32,000 nt of DNA from Candidatus Saccharimonadota bacterium (GTDB lineage Bacteria; Patescibacteriota; Gracilibacteria; BD1-5; UBA6164). Numbering within the stretch: position 1 is the first letter of the stretch; each line of letters begins with the position of its first letter. The stretch covers positions 1,170,001 through 1,202,000 of the forward strand of contig OZ245768.1 in the NCBI GenBank assembly GCA_965227835.1. Reading direction: 5' to 3'. Of this stretch, positions 8,603 through 32,000 are shown in pieces. A program made the position numbers and the translations under genes. Below the pieces are notes generated by a model. It was given only the letters and a program-made list of their open reading frames with translations, had not been told where the DNA came from and did not search any database.

Positions 8603-8731
8603 AACTATTTATTGTAAAATAAATTAATATTTGATTATAACAAAATTTATATTTATTCAAAAAGGACTTTTTAATTGATTTTTTTTAATTTTTTATTATT
8701 AAATATATATTAATTTTTAATATAATAATTT

Positions 8732-9601
8732 ATGAATAAAAAACTATTTACGATTCTGTTCTTGTTTTCTTTAGTTTTTACAAACTTCAACTTGCAAAAT
8801 ACTTTTGCTATTACAAAATATAATGCATGAGAGGCTTCAAAAAGTAGCTCTGTTTATATATGATTAACCGAAGATGAGGCTAAATCTAAAGCAAGGGAAA
8901 TTTGAGATATTTTTAGGGTAATAAAAAGGGACGGAGAAGACTTACTAGTAACAATGGATTTCAGACCTTGAAGAATAAATGCAATAATAGAAGATGATGT
9001 AGTTGTATCTGTTAAAATTGAATGAAAAAGCTTAGAAGGTAATTATGATATTGAAGAAGTTAAATGAAACAGAGAAGAAAGTTTTTCTACTGGAGAATAT
9101 GGCAAATGACAAAATTCAAGTAATATGTGAAGGGTAGGAATACTTAGTAGTGCTTACATAGGATTAACCGAAGATGAGGCTAAATCTAAAGCAAGGGAAA
9201 ATTGAGATATTTTTAGAGTAATAAAAAGGGACGGAGAAGACTTATTAGTAACAATGGATTTCAGACCTTGAAGAATAAATGCCGTAGTAAAAGATAGTTT
9301 AGTTATATCTATTAGTAGAGAGTGACAAAATTTAGAAAATAGTGCTAGAGCAAATTTTGTAGAGTCAAACAAGGAATCAATATCAAGAAATAAGGGTAAA
9401 TTCCAGAAAAAAATATGAAATAGATTAGAAAAAGTTTCTACTGATAAACTTGGAGAACTTCATTTAAAAATAGAAAAACTTATAGAAGATACATTTGAAA
9501 ATTCAGAAATTACCGAGGAAAGAAAAAATTCTATGTTATCTCAATTTGAAGCATTAAGAGAAATAGTAGAAAATGAGATATACAAAAGAGGTATTGAATA
9601 G
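8732..9601 (+). CDS. secreted protein with two tandem peptidase-inhibitor-I78-like domains
   Basis: Signal-peptide-like MNKKLFTILFLFSLVFTNF. It has two copies of GLTEDEAKSKARE.GDIFRVIKRDGEDLLVTMDFRPGRINA, matching the I78 pattern (..RVI.PG..VTMDYRPDRLN..). 870 nt. Confidence 0.75.
8862..9282 (+). repeat. intragenic direct repeat, two 121-bp copies exactly 300 bp apart
   Basis: 8862-8982 and 9162-9282 are near-identical; I saw three substitutions by eye. Confidence 0.9.
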
Positions 9602-10599: not shown

Positions 10600-11230
10600 G
10601 TACCTTAAGTAAATATCTACCAGTAGAACTGGTAGCTTTAAATGGAAGCCCCTAGAAGGGGCTAAAATAGTTTTTACCAGTTTAAATCTAACTGATTTCC
10701 ATCAATGGTTTTATCCTTATGTTGCTGATGTTGAACATAATTTTTTATCATATCCAAGTCAAGTCAAACTGTACTTACATAGTATCATCTACTCCAGAAA
10801 TTCTTCGAGTACAGTCATTTCTTCTTACTATGTTTGTTATGAAGTATTATTGCACTCTTTCATTTCAATCTTCACAGAATTTCTGCAACAGAGTATTTTG
10901 GAGATATCCTCAAAACGAGATGAACATGATCTATCGTTATATTTCATTTTAATATCTCAAAATCATATCTCTTTGCAAGTTCATGAAATGTGTCTCGTAT
11001 ATCTTTTCTAACTGATTGAAAAAGTATTTTTTTTCGGTACTTTGGTACCACCACTATGTGGTAAGTGCAGTCCCAATTCACATGGGACTGCTTTGCGTAT
11101 TTGTGGGACATATCTTTAAAAAGTTATTCCCCTCCTAGGTGCTTCCTAGAAGATTATACACAACTACCGGAACGGTAAAACCTCCACTACTCGCACCAGC
11201 AGAGCTGGTGGTTTAGTGTTGGATTAATTA
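10600..11230 (-). mobile_element. IS200/IS605-family insertion sequence (tnpA only)
   Basis: The Y1 transposase gene is flanked by related subterminal hairpins: CTACCAGT-AGA-ACTGGTAG (10617-10635) and CACCAGC-AGA-GCTGGTG (11194-11210). A further hairpin lies at 10647-10663. The outer boundaries are approximate. Confidence 0.7.
10674..11111 (-). CDS. tnpA: IS200/IS605-family Y1 (HUH) transposase TnpA
   Basis: MSHKYAKQSHVNWDCTYHIVVVPKYRKKIL..., HUH motif IDHVHLVL, catalytic-Tyr region FWSRGYYVSTVG. Six in-frame TGA read as Gly. 438 nt. Confidence 0.9.
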
Positions 11231-11453
11231 TACATTTATATAAGCATAAATCCAAATTTTTTCCCAAAATAACAAAAAAGAGTCACAAACTATAATTGTA
11301 ACTCTTTCTTTAAGTAGATACTTTAAGAATTCTTTAGTTCCTATAAAATAATAAATTTTTTAGGTAATTTTTAAGAATAAAAATTAGCAAAAAAGAATTG
11401 CTTTTCTTTTAAATGAACTTTTTAAGGTTTCCTTAAATAATACATTTAAATAA

Positions 11454-13165: not shown

Positions 13166-13346
13166 GAAAAAGATTAACCTCGAGCTAATACACAAAATGT
13201 GTACAAAAAGAGAAATTTTTTACAACAGCAAAGGTCTAAAGCTCTCTATTGACAAAAAGTAAAAATTGTATTTTAAAAATAGTCTAACTTACGAGTTAGT
13301 TTACTATAGTATAAAGATAGCTTTGGCTCTTTGACCTTATATCTAT

Positions 13347-13374
13347 TTCAACAGAAGGCTTTAGCCTTCTGAGC
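13347..13374 (-). repeat. GGCTAAAGCC-type palindromic motif (M motif), isolated copy
   Basis: CAGAAGGC-TTTA-GCCTTCTG, an 8-bp stem (13352-13371), preceded by TTCAACAG. A related half-motif TCTAAAGCTCTCTATTGAC lies at 13235-13253. Confidence 0.7.
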
Positions 13375-14327: not shown

Positions 14328-15089
14328 CTACATTCAAGTACAACTTTGATCAGCTAAACTTCAATCTTCTTGCCTTATTTGATATTCTCAATCTCATATA
14401 GATTTTCTTGCATCTTTTATCTCTTCACAGCTTTCAAAACTACTATTTTGAGAAAATGATCATCTAGACTCAGCTTTTACCAAAATAGTATCAAAATCAG
14501 TAGAATCACTTACAGGAGATGTTCATCAATCAAATAGGTAGGGCAAATTATGAGATAAATCATCAAATATAATTCTCTTTCTAAAATTTGTTACTTCAAC
14601 ACTGCTTGTAGATTCCATGGCTAAAATTATATTAGGCAAAACATTTTTTGCTACTGATTTATAATCTCACATAAGTATAGCTTTAGGGTTTTCATCATTT
14701 TCTAAGGTTCAAGCTATTTGAAATTCTGACTTATTTGTGGTTATACTATATAAAAATGGAATATCTGCTTCAGGATCTAAGGGGATTTTATCAATAGTTG
14801 ATAATCACACATTTGTTCAAAGTTTTCACTGCCAAACAACCACATTTGAAGATGAACTATTTGTTATAGTAAAATAATCTTCTGGGATAGGGTAGCTTCA
14901 TTTATTTTTACTATAAAGCTTCATAGCAGCAACTACTTGGGAAAGACTAGATTTTCTTTCTGCATCTCTAGAATAGCTTAAATTTCACACAAACGAACTA
15001 AATCATATAGCTCAAAGTATAGCAAGTATTACTGTTACTATTATAAGCTCTACAAAAGTAAAGGCAAGACTATATTTGGTTTTTAACAT
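14328..15089 (-). CDS. type IV pilin-like protein (prepilin-type N-terminus)
   Basis: MLKTKYSLA/FTFVELIIVTVILAILGAIGF: class III signal with Glu at +5 and an unusual Ala at -1. 253 aa with C-terminal Cys residues. Confidence 0.8.
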
Positions 15090-15143
15090 AAACTTTATGG
15101 TTTAAAAATTTATTATCACCATACCATATCTCTATATTCCATA

Positions 15144-15425
15144 CCTCCCCTCTCCTCCCAAAAGGAGAGGGGTTGGGGGTGAGGGCTTTAAGGAAAGGAT
15201 TTGGGGTGAGGGCTTTACAGGCTAGAGCTGGGGGTGAAGGTTATACGGAAGAGGCTAGGGTGAGGGTTATACGGAAGAGGATAAGGTGGGGGCTTTTACG
15301 GAAAGGACTTGGGGGTTAGGACTGTTCGAAAATGTTAGAATAAGGTTAATTTGGTAAGATAAGGTCTGTTCTATTCCCTCTCCTCTAAGGAGAGGGCTAG
15401 GGTGAGGTTAATTAAGGCTAGGTCT
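15144..15425 (+). repeat. GC-rich composite repeat, copy A (hairpin plus six G-rich tandem units plus a miniature second unit)
   Basis: Hairpin CCCCTCTCC (15147-15155) / GGAGAGGGG (15164-15172). Six 26-28-nt units of type TGGGGGTGAGGGNTNTACGGAAAGG follow (15173-15334). A second hairpin CCCTCTCC/GGAGAGGG lies at 15376-15396. Confidence 0.9.
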
Positions 15426-17844: not shown

Positions 17845-18099
17845 CTTGACAAAAATCTAAAGCTCTCTGTTGAAAGGAGTTTTCTACTTTATTATAATAA
17901 TCTCCATTCTCTACCTGTTCTATTCCTAACTGTTCTACTCCCCTCTCCTCCAAAGGAGAGGGGTTGGGGGTGAGGTCTGTACAGAGAGGGGCTGGGGGTG
18001 AGGTTGGTCCGGAGATGGACTGGGGGTGAGGTTTGTCCGGAAATGGGCTAGGGGTGAGGTTTGTCCGGAGAGGGTTAAGGTAAGGTCCAATCAAAAATG
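17845..18099 (+). repeat. GC-rich composite repeat, copy B
   Basis: M-like motif TCTAAAGCTCTCTGTTGAAAGG (17856-17877), CTGTTCTA direct repeats, and hairpin 17940-17948/17955-17963. Four exact-period 28-nt units CTGGGGGTGAGGTNTGTCCGGANATGGG (17964-18075) are followed by a decayed unit. Confidence 0.9.
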
Positions 18100-18104
18100 A
18101 TCAA

Positions 18105-18352
18105 TGGGCAAATGGCTAAAGCCATCTGTTGAAGGGATATACTAAATTTAGGGTAAATCCCCTATAATGGTAATTTCTGTTCTATTCATTCTGTTCTACT
18201 CCCCTCTCCTCCAAAGGAGAGGGGCTGGGGGTGAGGGCTGTACGGAGAGGGGCTGGGAGTGAGGTTTTCATGGGTGAAGGTGAGGTCTGCTCGGACTAGC
18301 TAGAGTGAGGGTTATACGGGAAAGGTTAGTGTAAGGTTTTCTTGGATTAGAC
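18105..18352 (+). repeat. GC-rich composite repeat, copy C (directly abutting copy B)
   Basis: M motif GGCTAAAGCCATCTGTTGAAGGG (18114-18136), CTGTTCTA repeats, hairpin 18201-18209/18216-18224, then progressively degenerate 28-nt units to about 18350. Confidence 0.9.
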
Positions 18353-19868: not shown

Positions 19869-19930
19869 AACCTTAATTTAAGTTTTAAAAACTTCAATAT
19901 TATATAACTTTTTACAAATTTGCAAAAAAC

Positions 19931-19964
19931 AAAAAAACCCCTGGCTAAAGCCAGGAGTTTTTTC
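19931..19964 (-). terminator. rho-independent terminator downstream of the S-layer-like gene (bidirectional shape)
   Basis: CCTGGC-TAAA-GCCAGG hairpin (19940-19955) flanked by an A-run and a T-run. The core is again GGCTAAAGCC. Confidence 0.7.
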
Positions 19965-31202: not shown

Positions 31203-32000
31203 TTATAAAGATAAATCAGCCCTACCATATTCAAATTTTATCTTAAAATCTGTTTTATATGTATAGTTTCATTCTCAAAAATAAGGTTTACTTTCAAAAG
31301 TTTTTTGTCTATCAAGAAGCTTAATATCGGGTATTTTGGATAAGTAATTTATGAAACTACTTGCTAAAGAAATGGATGTTCATTGTATAGTGTTTATTTT
31401 GTCTCAATCTATTCAAGGTATATTGTCATACCAAAGAGTTGAAAAAGCACCACATTTTGCTTCAAACACATTTCAAGTTATGGTAATACCATCACATTGT
31501 ATTTTTTTCTTATCAACAGAAGTAAACTCATTTATTATTTTGTCAAATTCATTGAGTATATAATATGGATCATTTTTATTTCTATATTTATCTATTATAA
31601 ATATAGATTCTTTAGAATTTTTTACATTATCTATTTCATAGGTTTTTTGTAGTATTGATATAATGCTTGTTAAATAGTCTTTTTGTAAACCTTTAATTTG
31701 ATCATCTACCTTTTTTGTAGAAACAGACAAAGCAGAACAAGTCTCTGAATAAGGAATATTTCAATTTAAAATCGAGCATACAGGGGCTAGATATTTTTGA
31801 TCTTTTAGAAACTCAGCATTTGTATTTTGCAAAAATATGTATCAAAGTCATAAACTTATCACTATAAACATGGTATAATTGAAAAACCTTAAAACATTTC
31901 AAAATTTATCTAAGTAATAAAAAATATCTTTTTTTATAGAACTTTCTAAATTATCAAAGTCTTTTTTGGTTTCCTCATCTATTTCAAATTCATCAAAAAT
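31203..32000 (-). CDS. hypothetical membrane protein, C-terminal part (gene continues beyond window end)
   Basis: The frame is open from 32000 to TAA at 31203-31205 and includes track ORF 31473-31730. One TM segment FFNYTMFIVISLGLGYIFL. It stops 9 nt before the next gene start. Confidence 0.55.

What the first reader, a model, noticed from the sequence alone, without database searches (positions are those of the whole stretch)
17845..18352. Tandem pair of GC-rich composite intergenic elements: conserved hairpin followed by 28-nt G-rich tandem arrays
Two adjacent units stand out as GC-rich islands in a very AT-rich genome. Each unit has four parts in order. (1) A GGCTAAAGCC/TCTAAAGCTC-type motif followed by TCTGTTGAAGG. 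(2) An AT-rich spacer of about 55 nt ending in two CTGTTCTA direct repeats. (3) A perfect 9-bp hairpin CCCCTCTCC-N6-GGAGAGGGG. (4) Four to five head-to-tail repeats of an exact 28-nt unit, CTGGGGGTGAGGTNTGTCCGGANATGGG at 17964-18075, which decay toward the 3' end. The arrays have no spacers, so they are not CRISPR. The G-runs (GGGG, GGGGG, GGG every 28 nt) could form G-quadruplexes on the G-rich strand. The same architecture recurs at 15144-15425 and, inverted, at 24611-24858 and 26198-26420. That makes five copies, all intergenic, in 32 kb. I do not recognise this as a described repeat or RNA family. Possible roles are a non-autonomous mobile element, a structured RNA, a protein-binding array, or a dedicated recombination landing pad.
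Basis: seen in the sequence. Interest (0 to 1): 0.8.

Follow-up and report, generated by a model that had tools for sequence, protein, structure and literature searches.

The report
Known BoxC-type triplex repeats, expanded
The GC-rich islands are clusters of a hairpin-plus-G-rich-tail DNA repeat already described in E. coli (BoxC, also called PIT element or triplex motif); here it is amplified into 28-base arrays in a very AT-rich candidate-phyla bacterium and is the exact landing site of an RNA-guided IS110 jumping gene.

Summary
In detail: the hairpins and the GGGTGAGG words are far beyond chance (12 vs 0.09 and 4 vs 0 expected). It is not an undescribed family. The core, CCCCTCTCC-loop-GGAGAGGGG-YTG-GGGGTGAGG, is a register-shifted member of the BoxC / PIT / TMECO class of G/C-rich class II intrastrand purine-motif triplex repeats (Holder 2015). 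The exact 21-mer occurs in more than 120 species of many phyla and more than 120 viral contigs. The host uses genetic code 25 (TGA=Gly) and belongs to the Gracilibacteria/Absconditabacteria group.

Three things are particular to this genome:
- The purine arm plus mirror arm is amplified into 28-nt arrays that decay away from the hairpin.
- The motif sits in a BIME-like mosaic with a lineage-specific hairpin (A) and spacer (S).
- The two "inverted copies" are one locus split by a 1339-bp IS110 element.

All six identical copies of this IS sit at the same CT inside the hairpin arm. Its bridge-RNA loop matches both flanks, and the guides covary with the flanks in three related IS lineages.

Most likely these are non-coding, structure-prone DNA repeats that expand by slippage and serve as IS110 landing sites. 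Why the motif is conserved across phyla remains unexplained.

The parts
17856..17877 (+). A module of unit I: degenerate GCTAAAGC hairpin followed by TCTGTTGAAAGG
17878..17939 (+). S spacer of unit I: AT-rich, ends in two CTGTTCTA repeats (17915, 17930). Contains the best sigma-70-like match of the region, TTGAAA-17-TATAAT at 17870-17898.
17940..17975 (+). Triplex motif 1. Y arm CCCCTCTCC 17940-17948, loop, R arm GGAGAGGGG 17955-17963, loop TTG, mirror (RH) arm GGGGTGAGG 17967-17975.
17955..18080 (+). 28-nt tandem array I. Each unit is R arm + CT + RH arm + 7-nt linker, with no Y arm. 4.3 units, decaying away from the hairpin.
18114..18136 (+). A module of unit II: GGCTAAAGCC hairpin followed by ATCTGTTGAAGGG
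18137..18200 (+). S spacer of unit II, with CTGTTCTA at 18177 and 18191
18201..18236 (+). Triplex motif 2: Y 18201-18209, R 18216-18224, RH 18228-18236
18216..18345 (+). Tandem array II, about 6 units. Identity to the consensus is 26, 25, 17, 18, 18, 9 of 28; GC falls from 0.69 to 0.22.
15147..15184 (+). Triplex motif 3: Y 15147-15155, R 15164-15172, RH 15176-15184
15164..15365 (+). Tandem array III: period 26-28, about 8 units, decaying
15366..15407 (+). CTGTTCTA remnant plus triplex motif 4, the 8-nt-stem variant TCCCTCTCC-TCTAA-GGAGAGGG-CTA-GGGTGAGG
26370..26420 (-). Decayed end of a G-rich array. It overlaps the last 10 nt of the methyltransferase gene 26411-27364.
26289..26358 (-). Two A modules (A7 at 26335-26358, A6 at 26289-26312), 45 nt apart
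26208..26288 (-). S spacer of the split unit
26198..26207 (-). Left half of the split hairpin arm: CTACTCCC followed by the CT core
24859..26197 (-). IS110-family insertion sequence, 1339 bp, with CT on both sides. Transposase CDS 24900-25922 contains 10 in-frame TGA=Gly codons.
26061..26127 (-). Putative bridge-RNA target-binding stem-loop. The left target guide TGTCCCCT (26102-26109) equals the left flank. The right target guide AAGAGAGT (26077-26084) is the reverse complement of the right flank.
   Evidence: model from PMC11208160
25961..26059 (-). Putative donor-binding stem-loop. AATAGG (26029-26040) matches the right end of the IS. AGTAG (25977-25986) is complementary to CT plus the left end.
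24824..24858 (-). Right half of the split motif: CT core, CTCCTCC, loop, R arm 24836-24844, RH arm 24824-24832
24745..24844 (-). Tandem array IV, 3 units
24611..24722 (-). Three A modules (A5 at 24698-24722, A4 at 24653-24679, A3 at 24611-24634), spaced about 44 nt
13346..13369 (-). Solitary A module: 8-bp hairpin CAGAAGGC-TAAA-GCCTTCTG followed by TTGAAA

Best explanation
Each island is built around a BoxC / PIT-type G/C-rich intrastrand triplex motif. This is a DNA-level, non-coding repeat with three blocks on one strand. The pyrimidine arm (Y) is CCCCTCTCC. Its Watson-Crick partner, the purine arm (R), is GGAGAGGGG. A third arm (RH), GGGGTGAGG, is the mirror image of R. It can lie antiparallel in the major groove with G.G, T.A and A.A contacts whenever that strand is single-stranded.

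Shown: the motif, its mirror rule, its cross-phylum spread, the arrays and their decay, and the IS insertions with matching guides.

Inferred:
- The hairpin/triplex forms transiently on single-stranded DNA during replication or repair and stalls synthesis. This promotes slipped-strand duplication of the R+RH half next to the intact motif. The result is 28-nt minisatellites whose older, distal units decay under the genome's AT pressure.
- Unequal recombination then builds the higher-order tandem units (A hairpins, S spacer, hairpin, array), giving a BIME-like mosaic.
- Because the sequence is repeated, intergenic and harmless to interrupt, an RNA-guided IS110 element has its bridge RNA programmed to the hairpin arm (TCCC-CT-CTCC). 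It uses the repeats as landing sites, and the repeats and IS copies in turn supply substrates for rearrangement.

No gene-regulatory or RNA role is assumed.
For: Motif identity:
- The published E. coli pattern is CCCTCNCCC-N3-6-GGGNGAGGG-N3-GGGNGAGGG, with triplex formation shown in vitro by CD and NMR.
- The window copies have the same Y-loop-R-loop-RH order with 9 of 9 allowed triads.

Mirror rule:
- In 123 variants that do not match my search word, the G-block lengths of RH follow R in the mirror sense (Spearman 0.64 and 0.73), not the direct sense (-0.17 and -0.06).
- 100 of 109 asymmetric arms are mirrored, including reversed-register cases.

Spread: the exact 21-mer is found in more than 120 species and more than 120 viral contigs, with unrelated flanks.

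Beyond chance in the window.

Arrays: they lie 3' of each hairpin and decay monotonically. Arrays of other periods (24, 28-29, 36 nt) arose next to the motif in other lineages.

DNA-level rather than RNA or coding:
- Both orientations occur relative to the upstream genes.
- The 28-nt period is not a multiple of 3.
- There is no Rfam match.

IS110:
- DEDD_Tnp_IS110 and Transposase_20 domains.
- 6 of 6 identical copies lie at ...CCCT|IS|CTCTCC..., one of them in the opposite arm.
- A two-stem-loop 5' non-coding region.
- Guides equal the flanks and covary in three related IS lineages. The geometry is the one described for bridge RNAs.
Against: - Triplex formation of this variant was not measured. 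For the E. coli motif it was seen only in single-stranded oligonucleotides, not in duplex DNA or by in vivo DMS footprinting.
- Slippage and growth at the hairpin-proximal end are inferred from the decay gradient alone. Across 209 motifs from other genomes, extra G-rich copies are as common upstream as downstream.
- Slippage does not explain how units with 72-92% identity over 100 nt or more reached different loci.
- It also does not explain why the 21-mer is identical across phyla.
- IS110 is not near the motif in 240 loci from other phyla, so the landing-pad use is lineage-specific and cannot be why the motif exists.
- The six IS sites come from one genome or population.
Confidence: 0.7

Rival explanations
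1. Non-autonomous mobile element (MITE- or REPIN-like). The A-S-hairpin-array unit would be copied to new sites in trans by a transposase, for example a Y1/HUH enzyme acting on the single-stranded hairpin or the IS110 recombinase itself.
For: - Composite segments of 100 nt or more recur at unrelated loci with 72-92% identity (L244 against window 18052-18157 is 92%).
- The module order A-S-hairpin-array is repeated in L242 12650-12990.
- An IS200-like Y1 transposase lies in the window at 10674-11123.
- The motif is carried on many viral contigs.
Against: - No terminal inverted repeats or target-site duplications are visible, and the boundaries are fuzzy.
- The Y1 gene has its own, different hairpins and no triplex motif within 2 kb.
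- No Y1 or IS110 gene lies next to the motif in 240 loci of other phyla.
- IS110 insertion and excision are expected to be precise at the CT core.
Confidence: 0.15
2. G-quadruplex / hairpin / duplex switch that regulates neighbouring genes, as proposed for the E. coli version of the motif.
For: - Kaplan et al. 2016 found K+-dependent G4 signatures for GGGAGAGGGTTAGGGTGAGGG.
- The arrays score 1.8-2.0 on a G4Hunter-like scale, and long-loop or two-tetrad patterns exist.
Against: - The variant here (G blocks 2-4-5-2) has no canonical G3N1-7 x4 pattern anywhere in the window.
- What is conserved is the mirror register with the Y arm.
- Both orientations and varied distances to genes occur.
- The literature found no promoter or terminator activity and no functional class of neighbouring genes.
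Confidence: 0.08
3. Structured RNA: a 3'-UTR stabiliser, a terminator or a small RNA gene transcribed from the TTGAAA-17-TATAAT in the spacer.
For: - A near-consensus promoter-like site lies at 17870-17898 just upstream of hairpin 1.
- The hairpin is stable: -11.7 kcal/mol, z = -2.7.
- Elements lie just downstream of genes.
Against: - The promoter-like spacing is not kept in units II and III.
- No T-run follows the hairpin.
- The elements lie in both orientations relative to the upstream gene.
- No Rfam family matches even at E up to 10.
- Array units decay like neutral DNA.
- Purine-motif triplexes are reported not to form in RNA.
Confidence: 0.04
4. Array of binding sites for a sequence-specific DNA-binding protein (nucleoid organisation, replication or segregation). 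This would also explain the nucleotide-level conservation across phyla.
For: The 21-mer is conserved exactly, including loop positions that structure alone would not fix, in genomes from 27 to 73% GC. It is also multimerised into arrays.
Against: - No candidate protein co-occurs.
- The motif is patchy between close relatives: absent from 61 kb of three related Gracilibacteria and from Salmonella as against E. coli.
- Array units decay, so they are not individually maintained.
Confidence: 0.05

Closest known systems
[quoted passage not shown] 2015, PMC4666352)
   Same: - Same three blocks in the same order: pyrimidine arm, 3-6 nt loop, purine arm, 3-nt loop, mirror arm.
- Same triad series, with G.G flanking one T.A and one A.A.
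- About 36 nt long, always intergenic, no strand bias.
- Multi-copy and patchy between relatives.
- Associated with variable DNA.
   Different: - The register is shifted: G blocks are 2+4 / 4+2 instead of 3+3 / 3+3, so the strict TMECO regex does not match.
- The R+RH half is amplified into 28-nt head-to-tail arrays, whereas the paper describes only single motifs and inverted pairs.
- It is embedded with lineage-specific A and S modules.
- The host is a 27% GC, code-25 candidate-phyla bacterium.
- The motif is also frequent on viral contigs, whereas the paper found none on phages for E. coli.
REP elements and BIMEs (bacterial interspersed mosaic elements) of enterobacteria and pseudomonads
   Same: - Short GC-rich palindromic units combined with other short motifs in a fixed order.
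- They form intergenic mosaics of variable copy number.
- They are used as insertion sites by IS110-family elements.
   Different: - No GTAG head.
- No associated RAYT gene found.
- The defining third (mirror) arm is not a feature of REPs.
IS621 / ISPpu9 / ISPpu10: bridge-RNA IS110 elements that insert into REP hairpins (PMC11208160; bioRxiv 10.64898/2026.03.19.712850)
   Same: - DEDD recombinase.
- CT core on both sides.
- 5' non-coding RNA with a target loop whose 5' side equals the left flank and whose 3' side is complementary to the right flank.
- The natural target is a repeated intergenic hairpin.
   Different: - The target is the arm of a BoxC-type triplex motif rather than a REP.
- The element is recoded for TGA=Gly.
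- No activity was tested.
HPG1/HPG2 G-quadruplex-hairpin-duplex switch (Kaplan et al. 2016, PMC5100583)
   Same: It is the same E. coli sequence family viewed as a G4-former. Its conservation beyond E. coli was noted.
   Different: The variant here lacks four G3 tracts with short loops.

Membership tests
BoxC / PIT / G/C-rich class II intrastrand triplex motif | Order 5'-pyrimidine arm, loop (3-6), purine arm, loop (1-6, typically 3), third arm-3', with stems of 8-9 nt | tested here: met
   My ITxF-like scan finds 15148, 15376, 17940 and 18201 with 0 mismatches.
BoxC / PIT / G/C-rich class II intrastrand triplex motif | The third arm is antiparallel-compatible with the purine arm (G.G-C, A.A-T, T.A-T triads) | tested here: met
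   9 of 9 triads are allowed in the window copies. The mirror rule holds in 100 of 109 asymmetric variants elsewhere.
BoxC / PIT / G/C-rich class II intrastrand triplex motif | Strict TMECO pattern CCCTCNCCC-N3-6-GGGNGAGGG-N3-GGGNGAGGG | tested here: not met
   The regex gives 0 hits in the window and 2 in the E. coli hrpB-mrcB control. The shifted-register regex gives 3 hits in the window. The window motif therefore belongs to the wider class, not to the E. coli sub-type.
BoxC / PIT / G/C-rich class II intrastrand triplex motif | Intergenic, multi-copy, no strand bias, patchy among relatives | tested here: met
   - Intergenic under code 25.
- Found on both strands.
- Absent from 61 kb of three related Gracilibacteria.
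BoxC / PIT / G/C-rich class II intrastrand triplex motif | Forms a stable triplex as single-stranded DNA (CD, NMR) | not testable with these tools
   Only the Watson-Crick hairpin could be folded: -11.7 kcal/mol. Triplex formation is shown in the literature for the E. coli variant only.
REP / BIME | Palindromic units in mosaic clusters with other fixed motifs | tested here: met
   The order A-S-hairpin-array recurs in the window and in L242 and L244.
REP / BIME | Associated RAYT (REP-associated Y1 transposase) flanked by the repeats, and a conserved GTAG head | tested here: not met
   The only Y1 gene (10674-11123) has different hairpins and no motif nearby. No GTAG head is present.
CRISPR array | Repeats separated by unique spacers of similar length, with cas genes nearby | tested here: not met
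   The units are head-to-tail. No cas-like gene appears among the window ORFs translated with code 4 or 25; only seven of them were scanned against Pfam.
MITE | Terminal inverted repeats and target-site duplication with sharp ends | tested here: inconclusive
   None are visible by eye or by BLAST of the copies, but the ends are blurred by decay and no empty site was available.
Canonical G-quadruplex motif | Four G3+ tracts with loops of 1-7 nt | tested here: not met
   0 matches in the window and 2 only with loops up to 12. The G4Hunter-like score is 1.8-2.0.
IS110 family with bridge RNA (for the element at 24859-26197) | DEDD_Tnp_IS110 and Transposase_20 domains; no inverted repeats; the same core dinucleotide on both sides | tested here: met
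   Pfam E-values 2e-20 and 2e-14. CT flanks both sides in 6 of 6 copies.
IS110 family with bridge RNA (for the element at 24859-26197) | 5' non-coding RNA with a target loop whose guides pair with the left-bottom and right-top strands including the core, and that covary with the target | tested here: met
   - Fold z = -2.45 with two stem-loops.
- In four IS lineages each guide matches its own flanks.
- The geometry is as.
- Activity was not tested.
Any Rfam RNA family | Covariance-model match | tested here: not met
   Only two tRNAs reach the gathering score. Nothing relevant appears at E up to 10.

The most novel reading that the evidence does not exclude
The BoxC-type motif would be a self-propagating DNA element in its own right. 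A still unknown, widely distributed, sequence-specific activity would recognise the hairpin-plus-mirror-arm fold on single-stranded DNA. It would copy the motif in a polar, templated way, producing the hairpin-proximal arrays, and spread it between phyla via phages. This would explain the identical 21-mer in genomes from 27 to 73% GC. RNA-guided IS110 elements would then have co-evolved with it, as seen in the guide-target covariation in Gracilibacteria/Absconditabacteria.
Probability: 0.1. Interest if true: 0.85.

Novelty: new variant of a known kind. Interest (0 to 1): 0.45.

Why it matters
BoxC/PIT motifs have been known for about 30 years, and the papers read here assign them no function or mode of spread.

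This locus adds three usable facts:
- The commonest cross-phylum form is a register-shifted variant. It keeps the triplex mirror rule but not the canonical quadruplex pattern, which argues for the triplex/hairpin geometry as the conserved property.
- The motif can seed polar, decaying minisatellites.
- In a code-25 candidate-phyla lineage, a bridge-RNA IS110 is programmed to the motif arm, and its guides change with the target in relatives.

The last point gives a natural, compact IS110 / bridge-RNA / target triple to test whether target structure (hairpin or triplex) gates RNA-guided recombination. It also shows a concrete way in which these repeats feed genome plasticity.

Tried and rejected
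- Standard-code gene calling gave almost no ORFs. Recoding showed TGA is a sense codon, and Walker A positions show it is Gly, hence code 25.
- CRISPR, protein-coding and Rfam readings were rejected.
- Full-text search for the 21-mers found no paper. The family was found only after I inferred the triplex geometry and searched for 'intrastrand triplex'.
- BLAST of the motif against E. coli genomes was uninformative because of the database size.
- RefSeq does not annotate BoxC in K-12.
- The orientation of the motif relative to ORFs in 120 loci was uninterpretable in GC-rich genomes.
- A metagenome scan with the lineage-specific spacer-hairpin junction found nothing.
- A general IS110-motif association was tested and rejected. 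tblastn and a profile of 74 IS110 proteins gave no hit in 240 cross-phylum loci.
- A general 3' polarity of extra copies was tested and not found.
- The promoter reading of the spacer was rejected because the spacing is not conserved between units.
Full report
**Context**

The window is 27% GC. With the standard code it has almost no long ORFs. Treating TGA as a sense codon restores a dense gene map. TGA falls at invariant glycines, for example the UvrA Walker A GSGKS. The genome therefore uses code 25, the code of Gracilibacteria and Absconditabacteria (SR1). The nearest Obg proteins (65-68% identity) are named Candidatus Gracilibacteria. A related IS110 transposase is named Candidatus Absconditabacteria. 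Under code 25 all the GC-rich islands are intergenic.

**The observation**

- Unit I has an A motif (17856-17877) and an AT-rich spacer ending in two CTGTTCTA.
- It then has a perfect 9-bp hairpin (17940-17948 with 17955-17963) and a period-28 array (17955-18074; 4.3 copies, 84% matches).
- Unit II repeats the order from 18114 to about 18345.
- GGGTGAGG occurs 12 times against 0.09 expected. The hairpin pattern occurs 4 times against 0 expected.

Three corrections are needed.
- The 28-nt units are not exact. They decay with distance from the hairpin: 26, 25, 25, 24, 17 and 26, 25, 17, 18, 18, 9 of 28 identical to the consensus, with GC falling to 0.22.
- 15144-15425 has two hairpin motifs and an array but lacks the A module.
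- The two 'inverted copies' are one locus split by a mobile element (see 'The insertion sequence' below).

The true module order is cyclic: hairpin, G-rich array, A hairpins (about 44-nt spacing), S spacer, hairpin. The multi-unit loci are thus higher-order tandem repeats.

**What the core is**

The 28-nt unit is the right hairpin arm GGAGAGGGG, then CT, then GGGGGTGAGG, then a 7-nt linker. The left arm is all pyrimidine and the right arm all purine. The following GGGGTGAGG is the mirror image of the purine arm: read antiparallel it gives G.G x4, T.A, G.G, A.A, G.G x2. That is the design of an intramolecular purine-motif triplex.

Searching the literature for that idea led to Holder et al. 2015 (PMC4666352). 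The motif is BoxC of E. coli, rediscovered as the PIT element by Hoyne and Maher and named TMECO. Its pattern is CCCTCNCCC-N3-6-GGGNGAGGG-N3-GGGNGAGGG.

According to that paper and the work it cites:
- It forms a stable triplex as single-stranded DNA in vitro (CD, NMR), but this was not detected in duplex DNA or in vivo.
- It has no promoter or terminator activity.
- It is always intergenic and shows no strand bias.
- It is patchy between relatives.
- It is associated with locally variable DNA.

Kaplan et al. 2016 (PMC5100583) described the same E. coli sequences as a G-quadruplex-hairpin switch.

The window motif is a register-shifted member of this class. Its G blocks are 2+4 and 4+2 rather than 3+3 and 3+3. 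It fails the strict TMECO regex, which does find the two E. coli control copies. It meets the general class II definition with 0 mismatches.

**Spread and the mirror rule**

These include Cyanobacteria, Chloroflexota, Bacteroidota, Planctomycetota, Acidobacteriota, Armatimonadota, Pseudomonas, Xanthomonas and a Nomurabacteria MAG. It also hit more than 120 IMG/VR viral contigs. The genomes range from 34 to 73% GC, the flanks are unrelated, and the pyrimidine arm is nearly always present upstream.

I examined 123 additional motif variants in those loci that do not match my search word.
- The G-block lengths of the third arm track the purine arm in the mirror sense (Spearman 0.64 and 0.73), not the direct sense (-0.17 and -0.06).
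- 100 of 109 asymmetric arms are mirrored, including reversed-register examples such as G5AGAG3 followed by G3AGAG5.
- These variants are partly related by descent, so the counts overstate independence. The reversed-register cases are genuine covariation.

By contrast, the window contains no canonical G3N1-7 quadruplex pattern. The conserved property therefore looks like the hairpin/triplex geometry.

**Arrays**

Tandem copies next to the motif are not unique to this genome.
- A Bacteroidota MAG (L010) has a decaying array of about 28 nt.
- Viral contigs L159, L183 and L194 have 24-nt arrays of the third arm.
- A Polyangiales MAG (L003) has a 36-nt array.
- An Anaerolineales MAG (L028) has tandem whole motifs.

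The different periods indicate independent origins and fit a structure-driven slippage process. A crude count over 209 motifs shows no general excess of extra copies downstream over upstream. The polarity seen in the window should therefore not be generalised.

**The insertion sequence**

Between the two 'inverted copies' lies an ORF with DEDD_Tnp_IS110 and Transposase_20 domains. Reading the minus strand, the sequence is ...CTGTTCTACTCCC-CT | 1339 bp | CT-CTCCTCCCAAAAGGAGAGGGG.... That is an insertion at the CT inside the pyrimidine arm, with CT on both sides.

The same protein is on five further contigs of ENA assembly ERZ25074195 and on a 1.49-Mb contig that I could not read. The database entry is the code-4 translation of this gene, differing only at the 10 TGA codons.
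- All six DNA copies are identical over 1339 bp.
- All sit at the same position, ...CCCT|IS|CTCTCC...GGAGAGG..., in different gene neighbourhoods.
- In L243 the hairpin is in the opposite orientation, so the element reads the arm sequence itself.

The 5' non-coding region folds into two stem-loops (z = -2.45).
- In the first loop, the 5' side UGUCCCCU equals the left flank plus core.
- The 3' side AAGAGAG is the reverse complement of core plus right flank.
- This is the geometry Durrant et al. 2024 describe for the target-binding loop of bridge RNAs.
- The second loop carries AAUAGG and AGUAG, matching the element's own ends.

Three related IS lineages (51-64% protein identity to the window transposase) keep the scaffold but change both guides together with their own flanks:

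| Locus | Flanks | Loop guides |
|---|---|---|
| L246 | GCCTCT \| CTTTCTCC | GCCUCU / AAGAAAG |
| L251 | CTTCCCT \| CTTAAGTC | CUUCCCU / AAUUAAG |
| L250 | CCTTCCCT \| CTCGGAGA | UUCCUUCCCU / UCUCUGAG |

At least one of their targets, in L251, is again a pyrimidine/purine hairpin next to an S-like CTGTTCTTACT. No IS110 gene lies near the motif in 240 loci from other phyla. I found no paper in the searched library linking IS110 to BoxC or triplex motifs.

**Lineage-specific parts**

The A module is an 8-bp hairpin with a TAAA loop followed by TCTGTTGA or TTGTCTAG, for example CAGAAGGC-TAAA-GCCTTCTG.
- The stem sequence differs between copies while mostly staying self-complementary (GGGC/GCCC, GGGT/ACCC, AGGC/GCCT).
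- It also occurs alone, in inverted pairs and as a 33-nt tandem array.
- It is therefore a separate dispersed repeat that co-locates with the triplex motif, much as BIMEs combine REPs with other motifs.

Composite segments recur at other loci with 72-92% identity. Three related Gracilibacteria (61 kb around Obg) have no motif at all. Excluding the IS-anchored sites, the five extra contigs hold about 4 motif loci in 73 kb. That extrapolates to roughly 80 or more per genome; this is an inference, not a count.

**Interpretation**

Shown:
- family identity and the mirror rule;
- cross-phylum and viral occurrence;
- arrays with decay;
- precise, repeated IS110 insertion with matching, covarying guides.

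Inferred:
- transient hairpin/triplex formation on single-stranded DNA causes stalling and slippage that amplify the purine-plus-mirror half beside the intact motif;
- AT-biased decay ages the distal units;
- unequal recombination builds the higher-order repeats;
- the IS exploits the repeats as safe, multi-copy targets.

Unexplained:
- how composite units reach new loci;
- why the 21-mer is identical across phyla.

The rivals (mobile element, G4 switch, RNA, protein-binding array) are listed with their tests.

**Verdict**

The array form, the mosaic context in a code-25 candidate-phyla genome and the dedicated bridge-RNA IS110 make it a new variant of a known kind, of moderate interest.

Noticed in passing
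whole window: The genome uses genetic code 25 (TGA = Gly). Every gene checked has in-frame TGA (1-70 per gene), and standard-code ORF calling fails. Public protein collections hold these genes as code-4 (TGA = Trp) translations.
   Followed up: yes
window 24859-26197 (-); L241-L245: An IS110-family element of 1339 bp is present in at least six 100% identical copies, so it is probably recently active. It carries a recognisable bridge RNA with target and donor loops, and its transposase is itself recoded with 10 TGA=Gly codons.
   Followed up: yes
window 10674-11123 (-) and 11130-11250: An IS200-like Y1 (HUH) transposase gene is preceded by its own set of short hairpins (CACCAGCTCTGCTGGTG, TTACCGTTCCGGTAG, CTTCTAGGAAGCACCTAGGAGG). 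These are unrelated to the triplex motif. A Y1 fragment also occurs in L243.
   Followed up: partly
window 13346-13369, 19930-19965; L241 1276/1405 and 15140/15308; L245 1895/1983; L242 12650-12780: The A module (GGCTAAAGCC-type hairpin followed by TCTGTTGA, often reading TTGACA) is an independent dispersed repeat. It is found alone, as inverted pairs and as a 33-nt tandem array. A similar hairpin with a T-run serves as the terminator-like site after the large surface-protein gene.
   Followed up: partly
L121 (IMG/VR contig, 7.3 kb); L159, L183, L194: Viral contigs carry the same motif. One has 4 copies in 7.3 kb sharing loop and flank, and others have 24-nt arrays of the third arm. The 2015 paper reported no association of the E. 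coli motif with phages.
   Followed up: partly
window 8729-9601 (+): A secreted-looking protein contains an internal tandem duplication of a domain of about 70 aa (…YIGLTEDEAKSKARExGDIFRVIKRDGEDLLVTMDFRPGRINA…, present twice).
   Followed up: no
window 19996-24189 (-): A very large (1381 aa), highly acidic, Asp/Ser/Thr-rich predicted surface protein with a signal-anchor-like N-terminus lies directly downstream of the split repeat locus.
   Followed up: no
window 26411-32000 (-) and 14328-15101 (-): The window holds type IV pilus genes (PilB-like ATPase at 28515-29774, PilC-like platform at 27365-28462, a pseudopilin at 14328-15101). These calls rest on sequence motifs I read in the translations; I did not run Pfam on the PilB- and PilC-like ORFs, and Pfam found no family for the pseudopilin.
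   Followed up: no
L254 3058-3131: In a related lineage (Logan SRR11582172) the IS110 relative lies next to a variant motif, CCCCTCTC-TTAAGTAA-GAGAGGGG-CTA-GGGGTGAG. It is itself truncated at its left end by a DDE_Tnp_1 transposase gene, giving nested insertions at a repeat locus.
   Followed up: partly
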